From Escherichia coli O127:H6 str. E2348/69 (GTDB taxonomy: Bacteria > Pseudomonadota > Gammaproteobacteria > Enterobacterales > Enterobacteriaceae), in assembly GCF_000026545.1 (NCBI RefSeq), contig NC_011601.1: a DNA stretch of 64,000 nucleotides. One strand, written 5' to 3'. Both the position numbers and the translations under genes were made by a program. Positions 2,809 to 58,073 of the stretch are shown piece by piece (within the stretch, counting starts at the first letter, position 1; each line of letters begins with the position of its first letter). The notes under the pieces are model-generated. The model had not been told where the DNA came from and searched no databases. It worked only from the letters and a program-made list of their open reading frames with translations.

Positions 2809-2934
2809 TGCTGAACGTAGCGTAAACGCCTGATCCAGCCAACGGTTCGGATTTTGTAGGTCTGATAAGACGCGGTAGCGTCGCATCAGGCATCTGTTGC
2901 CGGATGCGGCGTAAACGCCTTATCCGTCCTACGA
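2809..2934. repeat. REP/BIME palindromic elements
   Basis: gccggatgcggcgtaaacgccttatccg and related imperfect palindromes typical of E. coli REP units, in the ybiC-ybiJ spacer. Confidence 0.7.
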
Positions 2935-16111: not shown

Positions 16112-16818
16112 AAAAAATCCGCCTCTCGGGGCGGATTTTTTTGTGCACAGAAAACCCCCAGCTAGGCTGGGGGTTCCGGAAAGCTTTCAGCTTTGAGCCA
16201 GTTATTAAAACCCCTTTTGATTTGTTAAAACACCTTGCGGTCTGGCAACTGCAAGTGTCAAACAAGAAATCAAAAGGGGGTCCCAATGGGGAACGAAAAG
16301 AGCTTAGCGCACACCCGATGGAACTGTAAATATCACATAGTATTTGCGCCAAAATACCGAAGACAGGTGTTCTACAGAGAGAAGCGTAGAGCAATAGGCT
16401 GTATTTTGAGAAAGCTGTGTGAGTGGAAAAGTGTACGGATTCTGGAAGCTGAATGCTGTGCAGATCATATCCATATGCTTGTGGAGATCCCGCCCAAAAT
16501 GAGCGTATCCGGCTTTATGGGATATCTGAAAGGGAAAAGCAGTCTGATGCTTTACGAGCAGTTTGGTGATTTGAAATTCAAGTACAGGAACAGGGAGTTC
16601 TGGTGCAGAGGGTATTACGTCGATACGGTGGGTAAGAACACGGCGAAGATACAGGATTACATAAAGCACCAGCTTGAAGAGGATAAAATGGGAGAGCAGT
16701 TATCGATTCCCTATCCGGGCAGCCCGTTTACGGGCCGTAAGTAACGAAGTTGGATGCAAATGTCAGATCGTGTGCGCCTGTTAGGGCGCGGCTGGTAAGA
16801 GAGCCTTATAGGCGCATT
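16112..16818 (+). mobile_element. IS200 insertion sequence (IS200/IS605 family); boundaries approximate
   Basis: Y1 transposase gene flanked by the two characteristic structures: an A-tract/GC-hairpin/T-tract at 16112-16146 plus palindrome acccccagc-tag-gctgggggt, and a stem (ccccttttgattt / aaatcaaaagggg) that overlaps the tnpA RBS. A ~707 bp element with tnpA at ~175-633 fits these coordinates. Confidence 0.8.
16286..16744 (+). CDS. tnpA: IS200 transposase TnpA (HuH Y1 transposase)
   Basis: 152 aa from MGNEKSLAHTRWNCKYHIVFAPKYRR...; HxH motif (DHIHML) and near-identity to recalled IS200 TnpA. Confidence 0.9.
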   Translation: MGNEKSLAHTRWNCKYHIVFAPKYRRQVFYREKRRAIGCILRKLCEWKSVRILEAECCADHIHMLVEIPPKMSVSGFMGYLKGKSSLMLYEQFGDLKFKYRNREFWCRGYYVDTVGKNTAKIQDYIKHQLEEDKMGEQLSIPYPGSPFTGRK

Positions 16819-52445: not shown

Positions 52446-53498
52446 TTACGGGGTAATGCCAACCGCTGCCGCCACTTTGTCGCCACTTGGCAGCGTTGCC
52501 AGAGGATTGAAACGGAGCGCCGTTTCCAGATGATCCGGTGCCAGATGTGCGTAACGCATAGTCATTTTTATATCGTGGTGTCCGAGAATTTTTTGTAAAG
52601 CCAGAATGTTTCCACCCGACATCATGAAGTGCGCCGCAAACGTATGGCGCAGAACGTGTGTGGGTTGACCGCGAGGGAGCACGATAGACGTTTTTTCCAT
52701 CACGGATAAAAATTGAAAATAGCAGTCTGTGAAGAAATTGAACCCATCAAGCGCCATGATCTCTTCGTAAAGCTCTTTACTGATAGGGATGCTTCTGTTT
52801 TTCTTCCCCTTCGCTCTTACAAAGGTAATTCGGTATTTGGTCACCTGTGAGCGGGTAAGATTTACGTCTTCTCGCCAGCGTGCGCCTGTGCTTAAGCATA
52901 TCTTAACTACCAGTGCCAGAATTGGGTCCTGACGTTTGCAATCAGCTAGTAATTCAACAATCTGCTCATGGGTAAGCCATGCCATCTCTTTTTCTGCGAT
53001 GGTGAATTTTCGCATGTTCTCCAGTGGGTTCGGATACGACCATTCGCCCAGGCGGGATAGTTCGCTAAAAACACTACTTAGATAGCTTTGCTCCAGGTTA
53101 ATGGTGACCGGGCTTGCTCCTTTCTTCCATTTCTCACTGAAGTAGATCTCACCTGTCAGGCGTTTATCTCGATAGTGGGCAAACATTTTAGAGGTTAGAT
53201 CAGTTGCAAGGGGATTGCCCAGAGCGTCAACCATCAGCAGCAATTTGTCATAGACATGCTGCCCAGCAGTCAGAGATTTACCATGTAGTTTGAACCATAG
53301 CTCAACCACGTCTTTCAGTGTTCGACGATCCACTGATTCACCCAGCCAGGGCTTTGCTTCGGTTTCTTCCATCGTGTGACGCTCAAAAGCCAGTGCTTCG
53401 CCTTTGGTGGCGAATTGTTTACGCACACGACGCCCACTACGTCCGGCGGGGTAACATTCGCAAAGCCATTTTCCTGTGGTGAGTTTTCGTACTGCCAT
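52446..53498 (-). CDS. int: phage integrase (tyrosine recombinase, P2/186 type)
   Basis: 350 aa; N-terminus MAVRKLTTGKWLCECYPAGRSGRRVRKQFATKGEALAFE and catalytic-domain motifs (LSTGARW, LRHTFAAHFMMSGGNILALQKILGH, MRYAHLAP) match recalled 186 Int. Confidence 0.9.
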   Translation of the reverse strand: MAVRKLTTGKWLCECYPAGRSGRRVRKQFATKGEALAFERHTMEETEAKPWLGESVDRRTLKDVVELWFKLHGKSLTAGQHVYDKLLLMVDALGNPLATDLTSKMFAHYRDKRLTGEIYFSEKWKKGASPVTINLEQSYLSSVFSELSRLGEWSYPNPLENMRKFTIAEKEMAWLTHEQIVELLADCKRQDPILALVVKICLSTGARWREDVNLTRSQVTKYRITFVRAKGKKNRSIPISKELYEEIMALDGFNFFTDCYFQFLSVMEKTSIVLPRGQPTHVLRHTFAAHFMMSGGNILALQKILGHHDIKMTMRYAHLAPDHLETALRFNPLATLPSGDKVAAAVGITP

Positions 53499-53584
53499 AA
53501 TAAAGCCCTCATATCAGAGGGCTAAATTTAACTGTATGTTTGACCAGTGGTCAATGTATGGTTTAGTTTATTCAAACAATGCTT

Positions 53585-55102
53585 TTAATCAAATGATGTG
53601 GCCAGTTCAATTAATTCAATGTAATTATGTAAGGCATAAAAAGATGTATTCAGACCATTCTCTATAAGGGCTCCTTGCAAATACTTTATAGCTGTATCAC
53701 CATCAATAGGGCCTTGTTGAGATATAATCATTAGTGAATTTTGCCCATTGTTTTTTATACTTGATTTAAGCATGTTTATATTATTAATAAAATACAATGC
53801 AACATCTAAGTAATTTATTAATGTTAAATTTATTTTGGGCTCAATCTGTGAGATGAATAATCTACTGCTCGCCGTTCTATAGATATAATTGACACCTATT
53901 CTTTGCTGATTTGTATCAAGATTTAATTCAAGGATGGCTTGAGAAACACCTTTTAAATTGGAGCTTTGCTTTATCGAATCAGTGAAACGTTGTGCTGCAT
54001 TTCTTCGACCAATTAGTCCATCTATAATTTGACGTTCCTTATCATATATAATCATTAGCGAAATTATAAAAATATAATCTACTTTCTTTTTGACTAAATC
54101 AGATTTAAGAATGTCTATTAACCTTTCAGTATTTCGGATTGAGTCTCTTAGATTTAACCCAAATGCTTCAAATACGTTGGAAATATTTATTGAAAAGTCT
54201 TCTAATGTTGCTGTTAGTGGGTGTGTTTTTGATGTGATATTTTCAAAATCGGTACCAATATAATCACCAACAACACCATTAATTAAATCTTTAAGCTCAG
54301 GTTGTTTTAAAGTAAATCTTCTATGAAAAAAACGGCCTAAATAGTCATTTGCGGAAAAATCATTACCGTAAACATTCTTGATTGAATGTTGTAATTGATC
54401 TGTGTCAGTAGCAATAATAAAGACAAAATTTTTAATATCGAATATATGTTTAACAATCTCTAAAAGAGAAATTGCATAATCTGGCCTGCATCTGTCTAAT
54501 TCATCTATAAAGATAAATATAGGACATGAAAAACTATTTTCATATGCCAACCTAGACCATAACGTTAGTTCTTTTTTTAATACCTTAATGCTCTTCAGTT
54601 TTTCCTGGTGTTCCTTCAGCATTATTAATGAGGCTTCTTTGGCTATATCACCTACGTTATCTACTCCTGCATAAGTCTTGATTAGGCCAGATATGATTTC
54701 AGGTAGAACACCTTTTGTAAAGCGTCCGATAGCATGGCCGCTTTGTATCAATCGAGCATCAAGTTTTCCTGCATATGTTTGCAATTGTTGTGACAAAGAA
54801 GAAAAAAGGGTTAAAAATGCATCATCAGAAAAGTCTTGCTTCCAGGCATCAATGTAAACGCATGGGTGTGCATCTTTTATTGAGTTATAAAATCTCTTTA
54901 TGAAAAAACTTTTACCAGCTCCCCATTCTGCATTAAGGTTGATTACCGTGTTGTTCTTTTGCCCCTTTTCCTTAAGATAAAAATATAGATATTCTGCATA
55001 GTGTCTCCGATTAAGTTTGTCTTTGGAAAGAATTTCCTCTTCGTCGTCTAATATAAAGGTAGTTTCTTCATCCCAGTTCCAATTACAATCACCACATTTC
55101 AC
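53585..55102 (-). CDS. KAP-family P-loop NTPase (prophage cargo; candidate anti-phage protein)
   Basis: 505 aa; GTG start with GGAGA RBS; Walker A AEWGAGKS (res 58-65) and Walker B IFIFIDELDRC typical of KAP NTPases; long Asn/Ile/Lys-rich C-terminal region; AT-rich. Confidence 0.7.
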   Translation of the reverse strand: MKCGDCNWNWDEETTFILDDEEEILSKDKLNRRHYAEYLYFYLKEKGQKNNTVINLNAEWGAGKSFFIKRFYNSIKDAHPCVYIDAWKQDFSDDAFLTLFSSLSQQLQTYAGKLDARLIQSGHAIGRFTKGVLPEIISGLIKTYAGVDNVGDIAKEASLIMLKEHQEKLKSIKVLKKELTLWSRLAYENSFSCPIFIFIDELDRCRPDYAISLLEIVKHIFDIKNFVFIIATDTDQLQHSIKNVYGNDFSANDYLGRFFHRRFTLKQPELKDLINGVVGDYIGTDFENITSKTHPLTATLEDFSINISNVFEAFGLNLRDSIRNTERLIDILKSDLVKKKVDYIFIISLMIIYDKERQIIDGLIGRRNAAQRFTDSIKQSSNLKGVSQAILELNLDTNQQRIGVNYIYRTASSRLFISQIEPKINLTLINYLDVALYFINNINMLKSSIKNNGQNSLMIISQQGPIDGDTAIKYLQGALIENGLNTSFYALHNYIELIELATSFD

Positions 55103-55127
55103 TATGAAGTCTCCATGAAAAATTTAC

Positions 55128-56051
55128 TTAATGTAAACAACTTATAATAACTTTTGCAATAAACTCAATGTCTGTAAGCGAACATTCAAAAGAGTGATTT
55201 TGGGATGAAATATAAACTCGTCCTTTAGGTAGTCGAGTTATCATTCTAAATGAATTCTCTCCATCAATATTTACTAGCCACTTACCATCATGTACATCTT
55301 TAAAACCCATTTCACATATTAATTCAGAGTCTTCGGTAGATACTACGAATGCATTTTTTAAATTGGAAGGTAGAAAGCATGGGTCAAATAAATATGAGCC
55401 ATCATTTATTAACTTGCCATTGATTAATACTTTTTTCACTAATGTTAAAGTATCTTTATTTTTTGCGTTTTTCATTTCTCCTGTACCAAATGAAATCCAT
55501 TCAATAGAATGGCCCGTTTCTATTGCACACTGCAAAACCCAGTCTGCAGGAAAAATGTCACGCATGTATCGTGTGGCTAATGTGCTTTTTGAAATACCTA
55601 GGTGATCAGCTAATGCTTGGCGCGTTTTGTAACCGTAAGCCTCGACAATTCGTTCTATTGTTGCCTTACCCCCTCGGTTAAAATTCATGAGTTTTTCATT
55701 ATCGAACTTTATAGTGGGAATGTATACTTCATTGCAAAGGCCATTAACGGCATGTTTTTCAGAATATTGCTCTGATGAAGGAGCAGTATCTGAACCAAGA
55801 ACTAACCATTCAATTGATGCTCCTGTTTCTATGGAACATATAACAACCCAATCTGCAGGAAAGGTATTACGTGCATATCTGTTGGCCATAGTACTTTGGG
55901 AAATACCTAGATGATTACATAATGCCTGTCGTGACTTGAAGCCATAGGCTAGGAGTATACGCTCAATAACTTTTTGCCCTCCACGATTCTGCATAACTAT
56001 TGCTTTCAGATCGTTTTTGATATGGCTAAATTTTAATTTTTGAGTTGACAT
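55128..56051 (-). CDS. CI-like repressor paralog with tandemly duplicated N-terminal DNA-binding domain
   Basis: 307 aa; residues ~20-85 and ~120-190 are two copies of the domain (IERxxxAYGxKxRQALxxHLGISxSTxAxRYxRxxFPAxWVxxCxxETGxSxxWL) found once in the adjacent CI; C-terminal domain is paralogous to the CI C-terminus. Start could alternatively be the Met at residue 20. Confidence 0.75.
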   Translation of the reverse strand: MSTQKLKFSHIKNDLKAIVMQNRGGQKVIERILLAYGFKSRQALCNHLGISQSTMANRYARNTFPADWVVICSIETGASIEWLVLGSDTAPSSEQYSEKHAVNGLCNEVYIPTIKFDNEKLMNFNRGGKATIERIVEAYGYKTRQALADHLGISKSTLATRYMRDIFPADWVLQCAIETGHSIEWISFGTGEMKNAKNKDTLTLVKKVLINGKLINDGSYLFDPCFLPSNLKNAFVVSTEDSELICEMGFKDVHDGKWLVNIDGENSFRMITRLPKGRVYISSQNHSFECSLTDIEFIAKVIISCLH

Positions 56052-56101
56052 ATTTTTTACACCACAACAAATGCTTTACCAAGCATAAAAACATTCCTAT
56101 A

Positions 56102-56677
56102 TTACTCAAAGTACTTAACTGTTATGCTTATAATTTTTCCAATAATTTCGATTTCTTCTTTTTTACATTCGAAAGCCCTATTTCCACCTTCAACTAAGAT
56201 TCTTCCACCAGGTAAACGAGTGATATCGCGGATTGTTACTTCGGCATCAATACTTATTACCCATTTGCCGTCACGAATATCGTTAAACTCTTTATCGCAA
56301 ATAAAAACGGAATTGTTATCGGTGATTACAAACGGATTTTTGAGCGTAGATGGTAGAAATTCTTTATCGAAAATATAAAAACCATCTTCCTGCAAGGTTC
56401 CATCAGATAATACATATTTAACGACTTCCATAGTATTTGTATTACCTGAAGTTTGCTTTGAACCATGTCCGGTCGTGAGCCAGTTAAGCGAGGCGCCCGT
56501 TTCAAGTGCGCACTGGATTACCCATTCAGCAGGGAATGAGTCACGCATATAGCGTGTGGCGAGAGTACTTTTAGAGATTCCTAAGTGATCGCACAACGCC
56601 TGTCGAGTCTTGAAGCCATATGCTTCTACCATGCGCTCTATAGCGCCTCGTCCGCCTTTCTCCAAACTCATGGTCAC
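56102..56677 (-). CDS. cI: prophage immunity repressor CI (186 type)
   Basis: 191 aa; divergent from the apl/cII operon; N-terminal domain resembles recalled 186 CI (...AYGF...CALETGA..W..TG); start may be the ATG at 56671 instead. Confidence 0.75.
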   Translation of the reverse strand: MTMSLEKGGRGAIERMVEAYGFKTRQALCDHLGISKSTLATRYMRDSFPAEWVIQCALETGASLNWLTTGHGSKQTSGNTNTMEVVKYVLSDGTLQEDGFYIFDKEFLPSTLKNPFVITDNNSVFICDKEFNDIRDGKWVISIDAEVTIRDITRLPGGRILVEGGNRAFECKKEEIEIIGKIISITVKYFE

Positions 56678-56796
56678 TCCAAGTGAACTTTTGTCTTGAC
56701 GATTTCATTATGCGATCGCATGTTTATGGTGTTCACAAAATGCAAACGATCCGTATTCGTCCTGATTAATCAACATTAAACGAGGAATGTTGCATC
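56678..56796. promoter_or_regulatory. prophage immunity switch region (early lytic promoter and candidate CI operators)
   Basis: Divergent intergenic region with TTGACG -35-like hexamer (56696-56701), perfect 12-bp palindrome ATGCGATCGCAT (56710-56721), and flanking inverted repeat GTGAAC...GTTCAC (56683-56688 / 56731-56736). Confidence 0.45.
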
Positions 56797-57018
56797 ATGA
56801 AACCTAACATTTCAATCACTCTTACCACGCCTCATGTGACTATTGAACGTTATAGCGAGCTGACAGGGCTATCCATCGATACTATCAATGACATGTTGGC
56901 TGATGGACGTCTTATCCGTCACCGTCTGCGGAAAGATAAAAAACGCGAAAAAGTGATGATCAACATAGCAGCCATGACCGTTGATGCGCTTTCAGAATGC
57001 AATCTAAACCTTAATTAG
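56797..57018 (+). CDS. Apl/Cox-like HTH excisionase-regulator
   Basis: 73 aa; first gene of the rightward operon with GAGGAA RBS; position matches 186 apl / P2 cox. Confidence 0.55.
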
Positions 57019-57050
57019 TTCGATTCTGAAATACATCAGAGGCATTGACC

Positions 57051-57560
57051 ATGTTTGATTACCAAGTTTCCAAACACCCGCATTTTGATGAAGCCTGTAG
57101 AGCTTTTGCACTTCGTCACAATATGGCGAAGCTGGCAGAACGTGCAGGAATGAATGTCCAGACTCTGCGAAACAAACTCAACCCAGATCAACCGCATCAG
57201 CTCAATGCGCCAGAAATCTGGCTGCTTACCGATCTGACTGAAGATTCAACGCTGGTAGATGGCTTTCTGGCACAGATTCACTGCCTGCCATGTGTACCGA
57301 TTAATGAGGTGGCAAAAGAGAAACTGCCGCATTACGTCATGAGTGCAACTGCAGAGATAGGGCGTGTCGCGGCAGGTGCGGTTTCTGGCGATGTAAAAAC
57401 CAGTGCAGGCCGTCGTGATGCGATCAGCAGCATTAACTCTGTTACACGACTGATGGCGCTGGCTGCTGTTTCATTGCAGGCCCGTTTACAGGCTAATCCT
57501 GCGATGGCGAGTGCAGTTGATACCGTGACTGGCCTCGGTGCTTCATTCGGTTTGCTGTGA
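57051..57560 (+). CDS. cII: CII-like lysogeny establishment regulator (186 type)
   Basis: Start trimmed to [45 protein letters not shown]...; closely matches recalled 186 CII over its full length. Confidence 0.85.
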
Positions 57561-57567
57561 GGTGCTT

Positions 57568-57768
57568 ATGCTGACGAAAGAACCATCATTTGCATCGCTG
57601 CTGGTAAAACAAAGTCCGGCAATGCACTACGGTCACGGCTGGATCATGGGTGAGGATGGTAAACGCTGGCATCCGTGCCGTTCACAAGATGAATTGCTGG
57701 CAGAACTATCAACGAAAAAACGGGGGAACCAATGGCTATTGAAGGCGCTGCGGCGACTGTTCCATTAA
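57568..57768 (+). CDS. hypothetical phage early protein
   Basis: 66 aa from MLTKEPSF...; sits where 186 carries fil; no recognisable motif. Confidence 0.4.
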   Translation: MLTKEPSFASLLVKQSPAMHYGHGWIMGEDGKRWHPCRSQDELLAELSTKKRGNQWLLKALRRLFH

Positions 57769-58073
57769 GCCCCGGTGAACGCCTGAATGGACTTAATCAT
57801 ATTGCGGAATTAAGAGCGAAAGTTTTTGGCCTGAATATTGAGTCAGAGCTTGAGCGGTTTATTAAAGATATGCGTGATCCACGGGATATCAATAATGAAC
57901 AAAATAAACGGGCACTGGCTGCCATATTCTTTATGGCAAAAATTCCAGCTGAACGTCATAGCATCAGCATTAATGAGCTGACCACTGACGAAAAGCGGGA
58001 GCTGATTAAAGCAATGAATCATTTTCGTGCAGTGGTGAGCTTATTTCCCAGACGGCTAACCATGCCGAATTAA
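57732..58073 (+). CDS. hypothetical phage early protein
   Basis: 113 aa ORF in the early operon; start uncertain (overlaps previous gene by 37 nt). Confidence 0.4.
   Translation: MAIEGAAATVPLSPGERLNGLNHIAELRAKVFGLNIESELERFIKDMRDPRDINNEQNKRALAAIFFMAKIPAERHSISINELTTDEKRELIKAMNHFRAVVSLFPRRLTMPN

What the first reader, a model, noticed from the sequence alone, without database searches (positions are those of the whole stretch)
55128..56051. Repressor paralog with internally duplicated CI-type DNA-binding domain
The ~65 aa CI N-terminal module occurs twice in tandem, followed by a CI-like C-terminal domain. Together with the adjacent canonical cI this gives three DNA-level copies of a ~200-bp unit (about 55500-55700, 55800-56000, 56480-56680). 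The antisense ORFs 55363..55605 and 55687..55914 are echoes of this repeat. A repressor with doubled HTH domains could bind a differently spaced operator, acting as a second immunity specificity or as regulator/sensor for the downstream NTPase.
Basis: seen in the sequence. Interest (0 to 1): 0.8.

Follow-up and report, generated by a model that had tools for sequence, protein, structure and literature searches.

The report
Second, double-headed phage repressor gene
A 186-like prophage of E. coli E2348/69 carries, right after its normal repressor gene, an intact second repressor with two DNA-binding heads; in related phages this double-headed form is the only immunity repressor, so here it most likely adds immunity against those rival phages.

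Summary
ORF 55128-56051 (-) encodes a 307-aa 186-family CI with two tandem HTH modules (Pfam PF07022 twice), a disordered ~34-aa linker and one CI C-terminal domain.

It is not an assembly artefact. The three HTH-coding units are only 61-64% identical in DNA, and the arrangement recurs in 16 complete E. coli genomes.

It is not a recent copy of the neighbouring cI. Tandem-HTH CIs form a large, apparently undescribed subfamily in Enterobacteriaceae. In 52 other loci such a protein is the only CI gene, sitting at the switch opposite apl.

Only in the E2348/69-type prophage does it come second. A 2.5-kb cassette (KAP NTPase = PADLOC PDC-S20, plus a mosaic doubled cI without its own operators or promoter) replaced ydcA in the cI-int cargo slot of a canonical-cI phage.

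Best reading, inferred: it is co-transcribed with cI and acts in trans as a second immunity specificity against class-A relatives that use the same attachment site. A neutral recombination passenger remains a strong rival. A role as dedicated regulator of the NTPase is poorly supported.

How two HTH modules read DNA is unresolved. Verdict: new variant of a known kind, moderate interest.

The parts
52446..53498 (-). Phage integrase, last gene of the leftward (lysogenic) gene string, next to host rcdA
   Evidence: PHROG 1 integrase, E 1e-71. RefSeq 'phage integrase'. It is 95.6% identical in DNA to the canonical-only prophage L092 up to window 53560.
53561..56060 (-). Imported 2.5-kb cargo cassette (KAP NTPase + doubled cI) in the cI-int variable slot
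   Evidence: Homology to the canonical-only prophage L092 stops at 53560 on the left and resumes at 56061 on the right. The junction was read base by base. Sister prophages carry other cargo between the same boundaries.
53585..55102 (-). KAP-family P-loop NTPase, candidate single-gene anti-phage system
   Evidence: PADLOC PDC-S20, E 5e-78, with weaker PifA and QatA hits. Pfam KAP_NTPase in gene tables. Homologues at 38-79% identity sit after cI in other 186-like prophages.
55128..56051 (-). Doubled-HTH CI repressor gene (307 aa, WP_000107166.1), the finding itself
55131..55433 (-). CI C-terminal (oligomerisation) domain, residues 207-307
   Evidence: PF16452, E 2.4e-25. AF2 pLDDT above 90. Foldseek to the 186 CI CTD 2fkd_A gives TM 0.92 and rmsd 1.4 A. 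Nearest relatives are CTDs of single-HTH CIs of the cI-KAP lineage, at 58-73% identity.
55473..55679 (-). HTH module R2, residues 125-193; recognition helix SKSTLATRYMRD, identical to that of the resident canonical CI
   Evidence: PF07022, E 2.7e-27. 50/77 identical to the canonical CI NTD. Helix strings listed.
55680..55781 (-). Flexible inter-module linker, residues 91-124
   Evidence: AF2 pLDDT below 50 for residues 92-125. Only 17% mean identity within class A.
55782..55988 (-). HTH module R1, residues 22-90; recognition helix SQSTMANRYARN of the class-A type
   Evidence: PF07022, E 1e-25. 81-86% identical to the R1 of other class-A doubled CIs. The helix is near-invariant in class A.
55989..56051 (-). 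Class-A-specific N-terminal extension, residues 1-21, with a predicted short helix at 13-21
   Evidence: Alignment A1 and the AF2 model.
56057..56086 (-). Nine-codon remnant of a YdcA-family gene (MLGKAFVVV*). It marks the right-hand recombination joint and its stop lies 5 nt before the doubled cI ATG.
   Evidence: Translation. Alignment of the junction against L092 and 4LV2017.
56102..56671 (-). Canonical single-HTH 186-type cI, the repressor cognate to the resident switch
   Evidence: PHROG 4. RefSeq CDS. Window 56061-58000, which contains this gene, is 93.7% identical in DNA to prophage L092, where it is the only CI.
56672..56796 (.). Resident switch region between cI and apl (pR/pL region by analogy with 186)
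   Evidence: Position between divergent cI and apl. Conserved with L092. Unlike the 88-bp class-A switch.
56797..57018 (+). apl/cox-like excisionase-repressor
   Evidence: PHROG 575, E 1.4e-30.
57051..57560 (+). 186-type cII
   Evidence: PHROG 101, E 4e-59. RefSeq annotation.

Best explanation
Shown:
- The ORF is an intact 186-family CI repressor with two tandem helix-turn-helix modules. These are joined by a disordered ~34-residue linker and followed by one CI C-terminal domain.
- This tandem-HTH architecture is a widespread natural variant. In related Peduoviridae phages and prophages it is the only CI gene, sits at the switch opposite apl, and so appears to be the immunity repressor.
- In the E2348/69-type prophage the gene is a mosaic. 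Its heads are of the class-A type. Its R2, CTD and the adjacent KAP NTPase gene match a cI-KAP-int lineage.
- It arrived as part of a 2.5-kb cassette that replaced ydcA in the variable cI-int slot of a phage with its own canonical cI and switch.
- It brought no operator or promoter region. No class-A switch sequence exists anywhere in the prophage.

Inferred:
- It is transcribed by read-through from the lysogenic promoter as cI - doubled cI - KAP (- int).
- Translation possibly re-initiates after the 9-codon ydcA remnant.
- In the lysogen it acts in trans. It binds the early-promoter operators of incoming class-A phages, which are heteroimmune relatives using the same attachment site. This gives the lysogen a second immunity specificity alongside the separate KAP NTPase defence.

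Unresolved: how the two HTH modules divide the DNA-binding work.
For: Architecture:
- Pfam finds 2x PF07022 plus PF16452.
- 186 CI (2fjr) matches residues 131-302 at E 1e-22.
- The AF2 model has three confident domains and a disordered linker.
- The CTD superposes on 2fkd at TM 0.92.

Family:
- 47 of the best 120 clusters (clustered at 90% identity) have two modules.
- R1 forms its own clade.
- In class A, R1 is 79% and R2 75% conserved while the CTD is 35%. Both recognition helices are near-invariant.

Primary-repressor role of homologues:
- A doubled CI is the only CI-family ORF, divergent from apl, in Klebsiella phages 4LV2017 and ST11-OXA245phi3.1 and in 50 further loci.

Uniqueness and origin of the tandem arrangement:
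- It occurs only in the E2348/69-type prophage.
- Breakpoints lie at 53560 and at 56059-56061, with a ydcA remnant.

Expression context:
- There is a 50-bp gap after cI, with no terminator-like site and no promoter-like site on the coding strand in that gap.

No cognate switch in cis.

Likely specificity:
- The R2 recognition helix is identical to that of the 4LV2017, P0002 and P0005 group. R1 differs from them by one residue.
- These proteins sit at near-identical class-A switches.

Targets exist in E. coli:
- 37 genomes match at least 80% of the N-extension-R1-linker query. About half of 474 weaker matches extend through the class-A N-extension.
- These phages occupy the same rcdA-side attachment site.

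Integrity:
- All three ORFs are intact in 13 genomes.
- None of the 6 nonsynonymous changes in the doubled cI falls in an HTH module.
Against: - No experiment or expression data were available.
- Among the 13 genomes the doubled cI shows 4 synonymous and 6 nonsynonymous polymorphisms. That is not distinguishable from neutrality at under 1% divergence.
- The cassette could have carried the cI along simply because the right-hand crossover was illegitimate.
- The presumed donor, a phage with this exact mosaic repressor at its switch, was not found.
- R1 has N62 where all 37 other aligned family members have D.
- The CTD comes from a different lineage than the heads, so operator geometry may not match any living phage.
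- I could not define operators for doubled CIs. Half-site patterns seen by eye were not above shuffles.
Confidence: 0.5

Rival explanations
1. Neutral passenger. The doubled cI was dragged in with the KAP NTPase by one illegitimate recombination event. It may be expressed, but it has no target and no selected function in this prophage, and it has simply not had time to decay.
For: - The right-hand joint is non-homologous, cutting ydcA at codon 9 and the donor 8 bp before the cI ATG.
- The arrangement is a one-off among about 60 related loci.
- Divergence among carriers is at most 0.8%, and the syn:nonsyn ratio is near neutral.
- No cognate switch is present in cis.
- D62N is unique to this protein.
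Against: - The ORF is intact in all 13 genomes examined, which come from hosts on several continents.
- Nonsynonymous changes avoid both HTH modules (0 of 6, chance about 0.03).
- An intact repressor in the lysogenic operon would bind matching operators whether or not it was selected for.
- Matching class-A phages are common in E. coli.
Confidence: 0.28
2. Modulator of the resident switch. The doubled CI binds the resident prophage's own operators through R2, whose recognition helix equals that of the canonical CI. Alternatively it co-assembles with canonical CI through the CTDs. Either way it would change lysogen stability or induction.
For: - R2 and the canonical CI share the helix SKSTLATRYMRD and are 65% identical over the module.
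- Both proteins would be made from one transcript.
Against: - The CTDs are only 49% identical. CTDs diverge fast in this family (35% mean identity), which fits the idea of avoiding mixed oligomers.
- The same helix motif is shared widely in the family, so it is weak evidence of shared specificity.
- The resident and class-A switch DNAs are unrelated.
Confidence: 0.12
3. Dedicated regulator, sensor or guarded partner of the downstream KAP NTPase.
For: - The two genes are 25 bp apart and arrived as one cassette.
- KAP homologues at 38-79% identity lie 0-26 bp after a 186-type cI in four prophage lineages. A fifth lineage (Yersinia) has a 327-aa gene in between.
- Across loci, CTD identity and KAP identity rise and fall together (69/79, 73/68, 58/63, 34/40, 40/52%) while int stays at 92-93% in three of the loci.
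Against: - In those lineages the CI is the ordinary single-HTH primary repressor at the switch.
- Doubled CIs elsewhere are followed by unrelated cargo: GmrSD+HEPN, AAA_15+DUF4276, and unknown proteins.
- A 327-aa gene separates cI and KAP in Yersinia.
- KAP occurs with no CI in Pectobacterium.
- PADLOC models PDC-S20 as a single-gene candidate.
- The co-divergence is what linkage predicts when recombination can only cross over in the conserved NTD and int flanks.
Confidence: 0.08
4. Assembly artefact or mis-joined duplicate of cI.
For: None found.
Against: - The units are only 61-64% identical in DNA.
- The arrangement is identical in 16 complete genomes and several metagenome contigs.
Confidence: 0.01

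Closest known systems
Coliphage 186 CI immunity repressor (PDB 2FJR, 2FKD)
   Same: - Same HTH domain family and the same C-terminal domain fold.
- Same genomic neighbourhood of apl, cII, fil, dam and gpA.
- 186 CI is reported to form a wheel of seven dimers that wraps operator DNA (PMC3675496).
   Different: - Two HTH modules per chain instead of one, with a class-specific 21-residue N-extension and a ~34-residue disordered linker.
- In this prophage it is the second gene of the operon and has no operators of its own.
- Wheel formation and DNA binding were not tested.
Tandem-HTH CIs of Klebsiella phages 4LV2017 (Elveevirus) and ST11-OXA245phi3.1 (Kapieceevirus), and E. coli, Salmonella and Enterobacter prophages
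   Same: - Same architecture.
- 51-62% identical overall, and 81-86% in R1.
- Same attachment site next to rcdA in the E. coli and Salmonella examples.
   Different: - Those proteins are the sole CI and sit directly at the switch.
- The E2348/69 protein sits behind a canonical cI and has a CTD from another lineage.
Lambda cI-rexA-rexB operon (from general knowledge; see also bioRxiv 10.1101/2021.04.19.439022)
   Same: A defence function is placed in the repressor transcript, so it is made in the lysogen. Here the equivalent layout is cI - doubled cI - KAP NTPase.
   Different: - Lambda has one repressor gene.
- The extra gene here is itself a repressor of a different immunity type.
- KAP is unrelated to Rex.
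Defence hotspots of P2-like phages (PMC9122126; bioRxiv 10.64898/2026.02.27.708500)
   Same: - The cI-int interval behaves as a cargo slot with swapped defence genes.
- The 2026 preprint lists a minor hotspot between integrase and primase. It also lists a single-gene KAP-domain system ('Reve') in P4 hotspots.
   Different: In the text I searched, those papers do not describe a repressor gene as cargo, nor tandem-HTH CIs.
Monomeric two-domain mycobacteriophage immunity repressor (PMC9283540)
   Same: One chain uses two DNA-binding domains, according to the title and abstract listed.
   Different: - Unrelated family.
- Its two domains are not tandem copies of one module.
- It is monomeric with no oligomerisation wheel. 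I did not read it beyond the abstract.

Membership tests
186-type CI repressor (Phage_CI_repr + Phage_CI_C) | N-terminal HTH domain of family PF07022 | tested here: met
   Two copies, at residues 28-89 (E 1e-25) and 130-194 (E 2.7e-27).
186-type CI repressor (Phage_CI_repr + Phage_CI_C) | C-terminal oligomerisation domain with the 186 CI CTD fold | tested here: met
   PF16452, E 2.4e-25. Foldseek to 2fkd_A gives TM 0.92 and rmsd 1.4 A over 109 columns.
186-type CI repressor (Phage_CI_repr + Phage_CI_C) | One HTH module per chain (canonical 1+1 architecture, about 190 aa) | tested here: not met
   307 aa with two modules. Hence a variant, not a canonical member.
186-type CI repressor (Phage_CI_repr + Phage_CI_C) | [quoted passage not shown] | tested here: not met
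   It is the second gene, 50 bp after the canonical cI. The feature is met by its homologues in 52 other loci.
186-type CI repressor (Phage_CI_repr + Phage_CI_C) | Cognate operators in the same phage | tested here: not met
   The conserved class-A switch elements are absent from the window and from the rest of the prophage. Operators as such could not be defined.
186-type CI repressor (Phage_CI_repr + Phage_CI_C) | Dimer and 14-mer wheel assembly; DNA binding; confers immunity | not testable with these tools
   Needs SEC-MALS or cryo-EM, EMSA or footprinting, and plating assays.
LexA / lambda CI type self-cleaving (S24) repressors | Match to the Peptidase_S24 profile | tested here: not met
   There is no S24 family among the Pfam hits. 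Some source names say 'S24'. Foldseek shows only distant fold similarity to LexA CTDs at 10-18% identity. The catalytic dyad was not examined residue by residue.
Dedicated regulator of a defence NTPase | Conserved pairing of the doubled CI with the KAP NTPase across lineages | tested here: not met
   Doubled CIs precede unrelated cargo. KAP follows single-HTH CIs or no CI.
PADLOC PDC-S20 (neighbouring gene 53585-55102) | Match to the PDC-S20 profile | tested here: met
   PDLC04959, E 5.1e-78, residues 20-389.
PADLOC PDC-S20 (neighbouring gene 53585-55102) | Anti-phage activity | not testable with these tools
   It is a candidate system only. No paper mentioning PDC-S20 was found.

The most novel reading that the evidence does not exclude
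The doubled CI and the KAP NTPase form a guard pair. The NTPase would monitor the state of its linked repressor, through the CTD that always travels with it. It would fire when an invading phage's antirepressor or the switch to lytic growth disturbs that repressor. The cassette therefore had to bring its own CI when it moved into a phage with a different repressor. A less radical version, counted separately in the main explanation, is that tandem-HTH CI wheels represent an undescribed operator-reading logic that gives the lysogen dual immunity.
Probability: 0.07. Interest if true: 0.8.

Novelty: new variant of a known kind. Interest (0 to 1): 0.5.

Why it matters
The 186 CI wheel is a model for cooperative gene regulation by DNA wrapping. 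A natural subfamily with two HTH modules per subunit, serving as the only repressor in many Klebsiella, E. coli, Salmonella and Enterobacter prophages, would extend that model. It offers a ready-made comparison for how operator reading and immunity specificity evolve.

Separately, a repressor of another immunity type carried as cargo in the lysogenic operon would be a very simple form of prophage-encoded defence against close competitors for the same attachment site. It sits beside a candidate NTPase defence gene.

Both ideas can be tested directly with plating and reporter assays in a well-studied pathogen strain.

Tried and rejected
1. TTGTGGTG in the 50-bp spacer as a class-A operator remnant. 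Rejected: it is part of the ydcA remnant shared with the canonical-only prophage, and the 8-mer occurs 5 times in the window against 2.1 expected.

2. GGCTTGTGGTGAGCC as the R1 binding site. Rejected: the same element occurs upstream of apl in single-HTH phages L101, L103, L104, L111 and L107. No significant match exists in the window.

3. A nested-palindrome operator (four GTGA/TCAC-type half-sites symmetric about one centre) in class-A and class-B switches. It looked attractive by eye. However, the repeat finder found no inverted repeats, and a dyad-symmetry score was not above shuffles (P 0.2-0.99). The Yersinia single-HTH switch served as a positive control and did score (P below 0.02).

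4. Recurrent 8-mers within -700/+1100 bp of class-A cI starts, as a search for distal operators. Nothing convincing was found.

5. Selection test on 13 genomes. Too little divergence to decide.

6. A donor phage carrying this exact mosaic repressor at its switch. Not found in E. coli complete genomes, IMG/VR or the contig index.

7. KAP homologues in the deposited phage collection. Only remote matches at about 30% identity, which were uninformative.

8. Literature. No paper on tandem-HTH 186-type CIs or on PDC-S20 turned up in the searchable library. The library lacks most subscription journals.

Full report
**Where we are.** The window is E. coli O127:H6 E2348/69, NZ_LT827011.1 positions 800001-864000. 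The finding lies at the left end of a 34-kb 186/P2-like prophage inserted between rcdA and ybjL. On the minus strand the gene order is:
- canonical cI (56102-56671)
- the 307-aa ORF (55128-56051)
- a KAP P-loop NTPase (53585-55102)
- int (52446-53498)

Rightward from the switch (56672-56796) run apl, cII, fil, DUF5347, DUF2732, a TraR-like gene, dam and gpA.

**Observation.** It is correct.
- Pfam places Phage_CI_repr twice (residues 28-89 and 130-194) and Phage_CI_C once (207-302).
- The two modules are 46/77 identical, z = 48 against shuffles. Each is similar to the neighbouring CI's N-terminal domain (41/71 and 50/77). The two CTDs are 51/105 identical.
- At the DNA level the three units are only 61-64% identical.
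- The antisense ORFs are mirror images of the repeat.
- 186 CI itself (2fjr) aligns to residues 131-302 at E 1e-22.
- An AlphaFold2 model from a 38-sequence alignment gives three confident domains, a short extra N-terminal helix and a disordered linker at 92-125. The low pTM (0.38) means no fixed arrangement between domains.
- The CTD superposes on the 186 CI CTD at TM 0.92 and 1.4 A.
- The arrangement is present at 99.2-100% identity in 16 of 5,426 complete E. coli genomes and in independent metagenome contigs, so it is not an assembly artefact.

**The architecture is a family, not a local accident.**
- Of the best 120 protein clusters found with the ORF, 47 have two HTH modules. They come from E. 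coli, Salmonella, Klebsiella, Enterobacter, Citrobacter, Kosakonia and Edwardsiella.
- A large class, which I call class A, has a 21-residue N-extension and an R1 recognition helix SQSTMANRYARD that is almost invariant.
- Several smaller kinds (class B) have other R1 helices, so doubling or R1 replacement has happened more than once.
- R1 modules resemble each other more than they resemble their own R2. Within class A, R1s are 79% identical to one another, against about 58% between R1 and R2 of the same protein across all doubled CIs.
- In class A, R1 (79%) and R2 (75%) are conserved, while the linker (17%) and CTD (35%) are not. Both heads therefore look constrained.
- I found no paper describing this architecture in the searchable library. 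That library lacks most subscription journals.

**What doubled CIs do elsewhere.**
- In Klebsiella phages 4LV2017 and ST11-OXA245phi3.1 the doubled CI is the only CI-family gene and sits directly opposite apl.
- The same holds in 50 further loci from genomes, metagenomes and IMG/VR.
- Many of these prophages use the same attachment site next to rcdA and have near-identical int, apl and cII.
- In those phages the doubled CI therefore appears to be the immunity repressor. This is inferred from position.

**Why E2348/69 is different.** The pair 'canonical cI followed by doubled cI' occurs only in the E2348/69-type prophage. Breakpoint mapping explains it.
- Window 56061-58000 is 93.7% identical to a common E. 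coli prophage (L092). L092 has only the canonical cI, followed by a small YdcA-family gene.
- The similarity runs 41 bp past the cI stop and includes the first nine codons of ydcA. These survive as the mini-ORF MLGKAFVVV* at 56057-56086.
- Similarity to class-A phages begins at 56059, 8 bp before the doubled cI ATG, and covers residues 1-189.
- From residue ~135 to the end of the gene, on through the KAP gene and into int, the window is colinear at 77% with Klebsiella prophages of the form apl - cI (186 aa) - KAP - int.
- On the left, similarity to L092 resumes at 53560, the boundary where all sister phages change cargo.
- So 53561-56060 is a cassette in the cI-int cargo slot. It holds a KAP NTPase and a mosaic doubled cI that brought no switch DNA.
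- Conserved class-A switch elements are absent from the window and from the rest of the prophage.

**The neighbour.**
- The NTPase matches the PADLOC candidate PDC-S20 at E 5e-78.
- Homologues at 38-79% identity recur just after single-HTH cI genes in other 186-like prophages. One has a gene in between, and one lies outside any prophage.
- Sister phages carry GmrSD+HEPN, AAA_15+DUF4276, unknown proteins or YdcA in the same slot.
- This agrees with the minor integrase-primase hotspot reported for P2-like phages.
- CTD and KAP identities co-vary across loci while int does not. This is expected if crossovers can only occur in the conserved NTD and int flanks, so I do not read it as evidence of functional coupling.

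**Mechanism.**
- Shown: an intact repressor gene of a foreign immunity type lies 50 bp behind cI. No terminator-like or coding-strand promoter-like site lies between them.
- Shown: its R2 recognition helix equals that of the 4LV2017, P0002 and P0005 group, and its R1 helix differs by one residue. Those proteins sit at near-identical class-A switches.
- Inferred: co-transcription from the lysogenic promoter, possible translational re-initiation after the ydcA remnant, and binding in trans to the switch of incoming class-A phages. That would give a second immunity specificity.
- Such phages are present in a few per cent of complete E. coli genomes and compete for the same attachment site.
- I give this reading 0.5. 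The structural and evolutionary statements are much firmer than the functional one.

**Rivals.**
- Neutral passenger (0.28). It is favoured by the illegitimate right joint, the single origin, the near-neutral polymorphism pattern (4 synonymous, 6 nonsynonymous) and the unique D62N. It is weakened by intact ORFs in all 13 genomes examined and by the absence of amino-acid changes in either HTH module.
- Modulator of the resident switch (0.12). It rests on the shared R2 helix. The 49% CTD identity and the unrelated switch DNA argue against it.
- Regulator, sensor or guard partner of KAP (0.08). See the neighbour section above.
- Assembly artefact (about 0).

**How two heads read DNA: unresolved.** Patterns of GTGA/TCAC half-sites that looked like nested palindromes did not beat shuffles. 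A conserved GGCTTGTGGTGAGCC element is shared with single-HTH phages and so cannot be R1-specific. The disordered linker would let R1 reach sites one to a few helical turns from R2, but this is only a geometric inference from the model.

**Verdict.** The finding is real and more interesting as a family-level observation than as a local duplication. It is a tandem-HTH variant of the 186 CI repressor. It is widespread as a primary repressor, and here it has been captured as cargo behind a canonical cI. I rate it a new variant of a known kind, with interest 0.5.

Noticed in passing
window 56057-56086 (-): A nine-codon remnant of a YdcA-family gene (MLGKAFVVV*) keeps an AGGA 9-12 nt before its ATG. 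It stops 5 nt before the doubled cI start codon, so the doubled cI may be translated by termination-reinitiation.
   Followed up: partly
L004, L005, L007, L002, L092, L101, L107, L111 (the cI-int interval of sister prophages at the rcdA site): The slot between cI and int holds different cargo in each lineage: GmrSD_N + HEPN RiboL-PSP; AAA_15/SMC-like + DUF4276; 384 + 359 aa unknowns + ASCH; 349 + 201 aa unknowns; YdcA; or KAP NTPases. It behaves as a defence or accessory hotspot expressed with the repressor.
   Followed up: partly
window 55131-55433 and 53585-55102, compared with L101, L103, L104, L107 and L111: The CI C-terminal domain and the KAP gene diverge together across loci (CTD/KAP identity 69/79, 73/68, 58/63, 34/40, 40/52%). 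The NTD stays at 73-77% and int at 92-93% in the enterobacterial loci where they could be compared. CTD plus cargo seems to be exchanged as one block.
   Followed up: partly
L002 4933-4948 and equivalent positions in L003-L005, L015-L057, L101-L104, L107 and L111; absent from window 56672-56796: A short inverted repeat, GGCTTGTGG(T/C)GAGCC, lies about 20-35 nt upstream of the apl start. It is conserved in both doubled-CI and single-CI phages. Stem changes look compensatory (AGCT..AGCT, CGCT..AGCG). L045 carries it as a tandem duplicate. Its function is unknown.
   Followed up: partly
window 55866-55868 (codon 62 of the doubled cI): The residue ending the R1 recognition helix is N in all 13 E2348/69-type genomes but D in the other 37 aligned family members.
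   Followed up: partly
L112 11370-17138 (NZ_LT827011.1 873369-879137, outside the window): In this E2348/69 assembly the gpS-like gene is annotated as truncated. The V-W-J-I-H baseplate and tail-fibre block is inverted next to a recombinase-family (invertase-like) gene. The prophage may therefore be unable to make virions in this isolate.
   Followed up: no
L095 (NZ_JBRERE010000002.1, labelled plasmid pE100181_149): One copy of the int - KAP - doubled cI - cI region lies on a 150-kb record labelled as a plasmid rather than on a chromosome.
   Followed up: no
window 56710-56721: A perfect 12-bp palindrome, ATGCGATCGCAT, sits in the resident switch. The canonical-only relative L092 has ATACGATCGCAC there. 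Four of the polymorphic sites among the 13 genomes fall in this intergenic region (56708, 56719, 56729, 56742).
   Followed up: no
window 16153-16276 (+) and 2859-2929 (-): Rfam gathering-score matches to the sRNAs STnc490 (146 bits) and naRNA4 (73 bits) in the host DNA flanking the prophage. These are ordinary E. coli features.
   Followed up: no
L011 10905-12888 (Klebsiella phage 4LV2017): This doubled-CI phage also carries a retron St85-type effector and a gene annotated 'polymerase' between gpA and the portal gene, which is the classical P2 defence hotspot.
   Followed up: no
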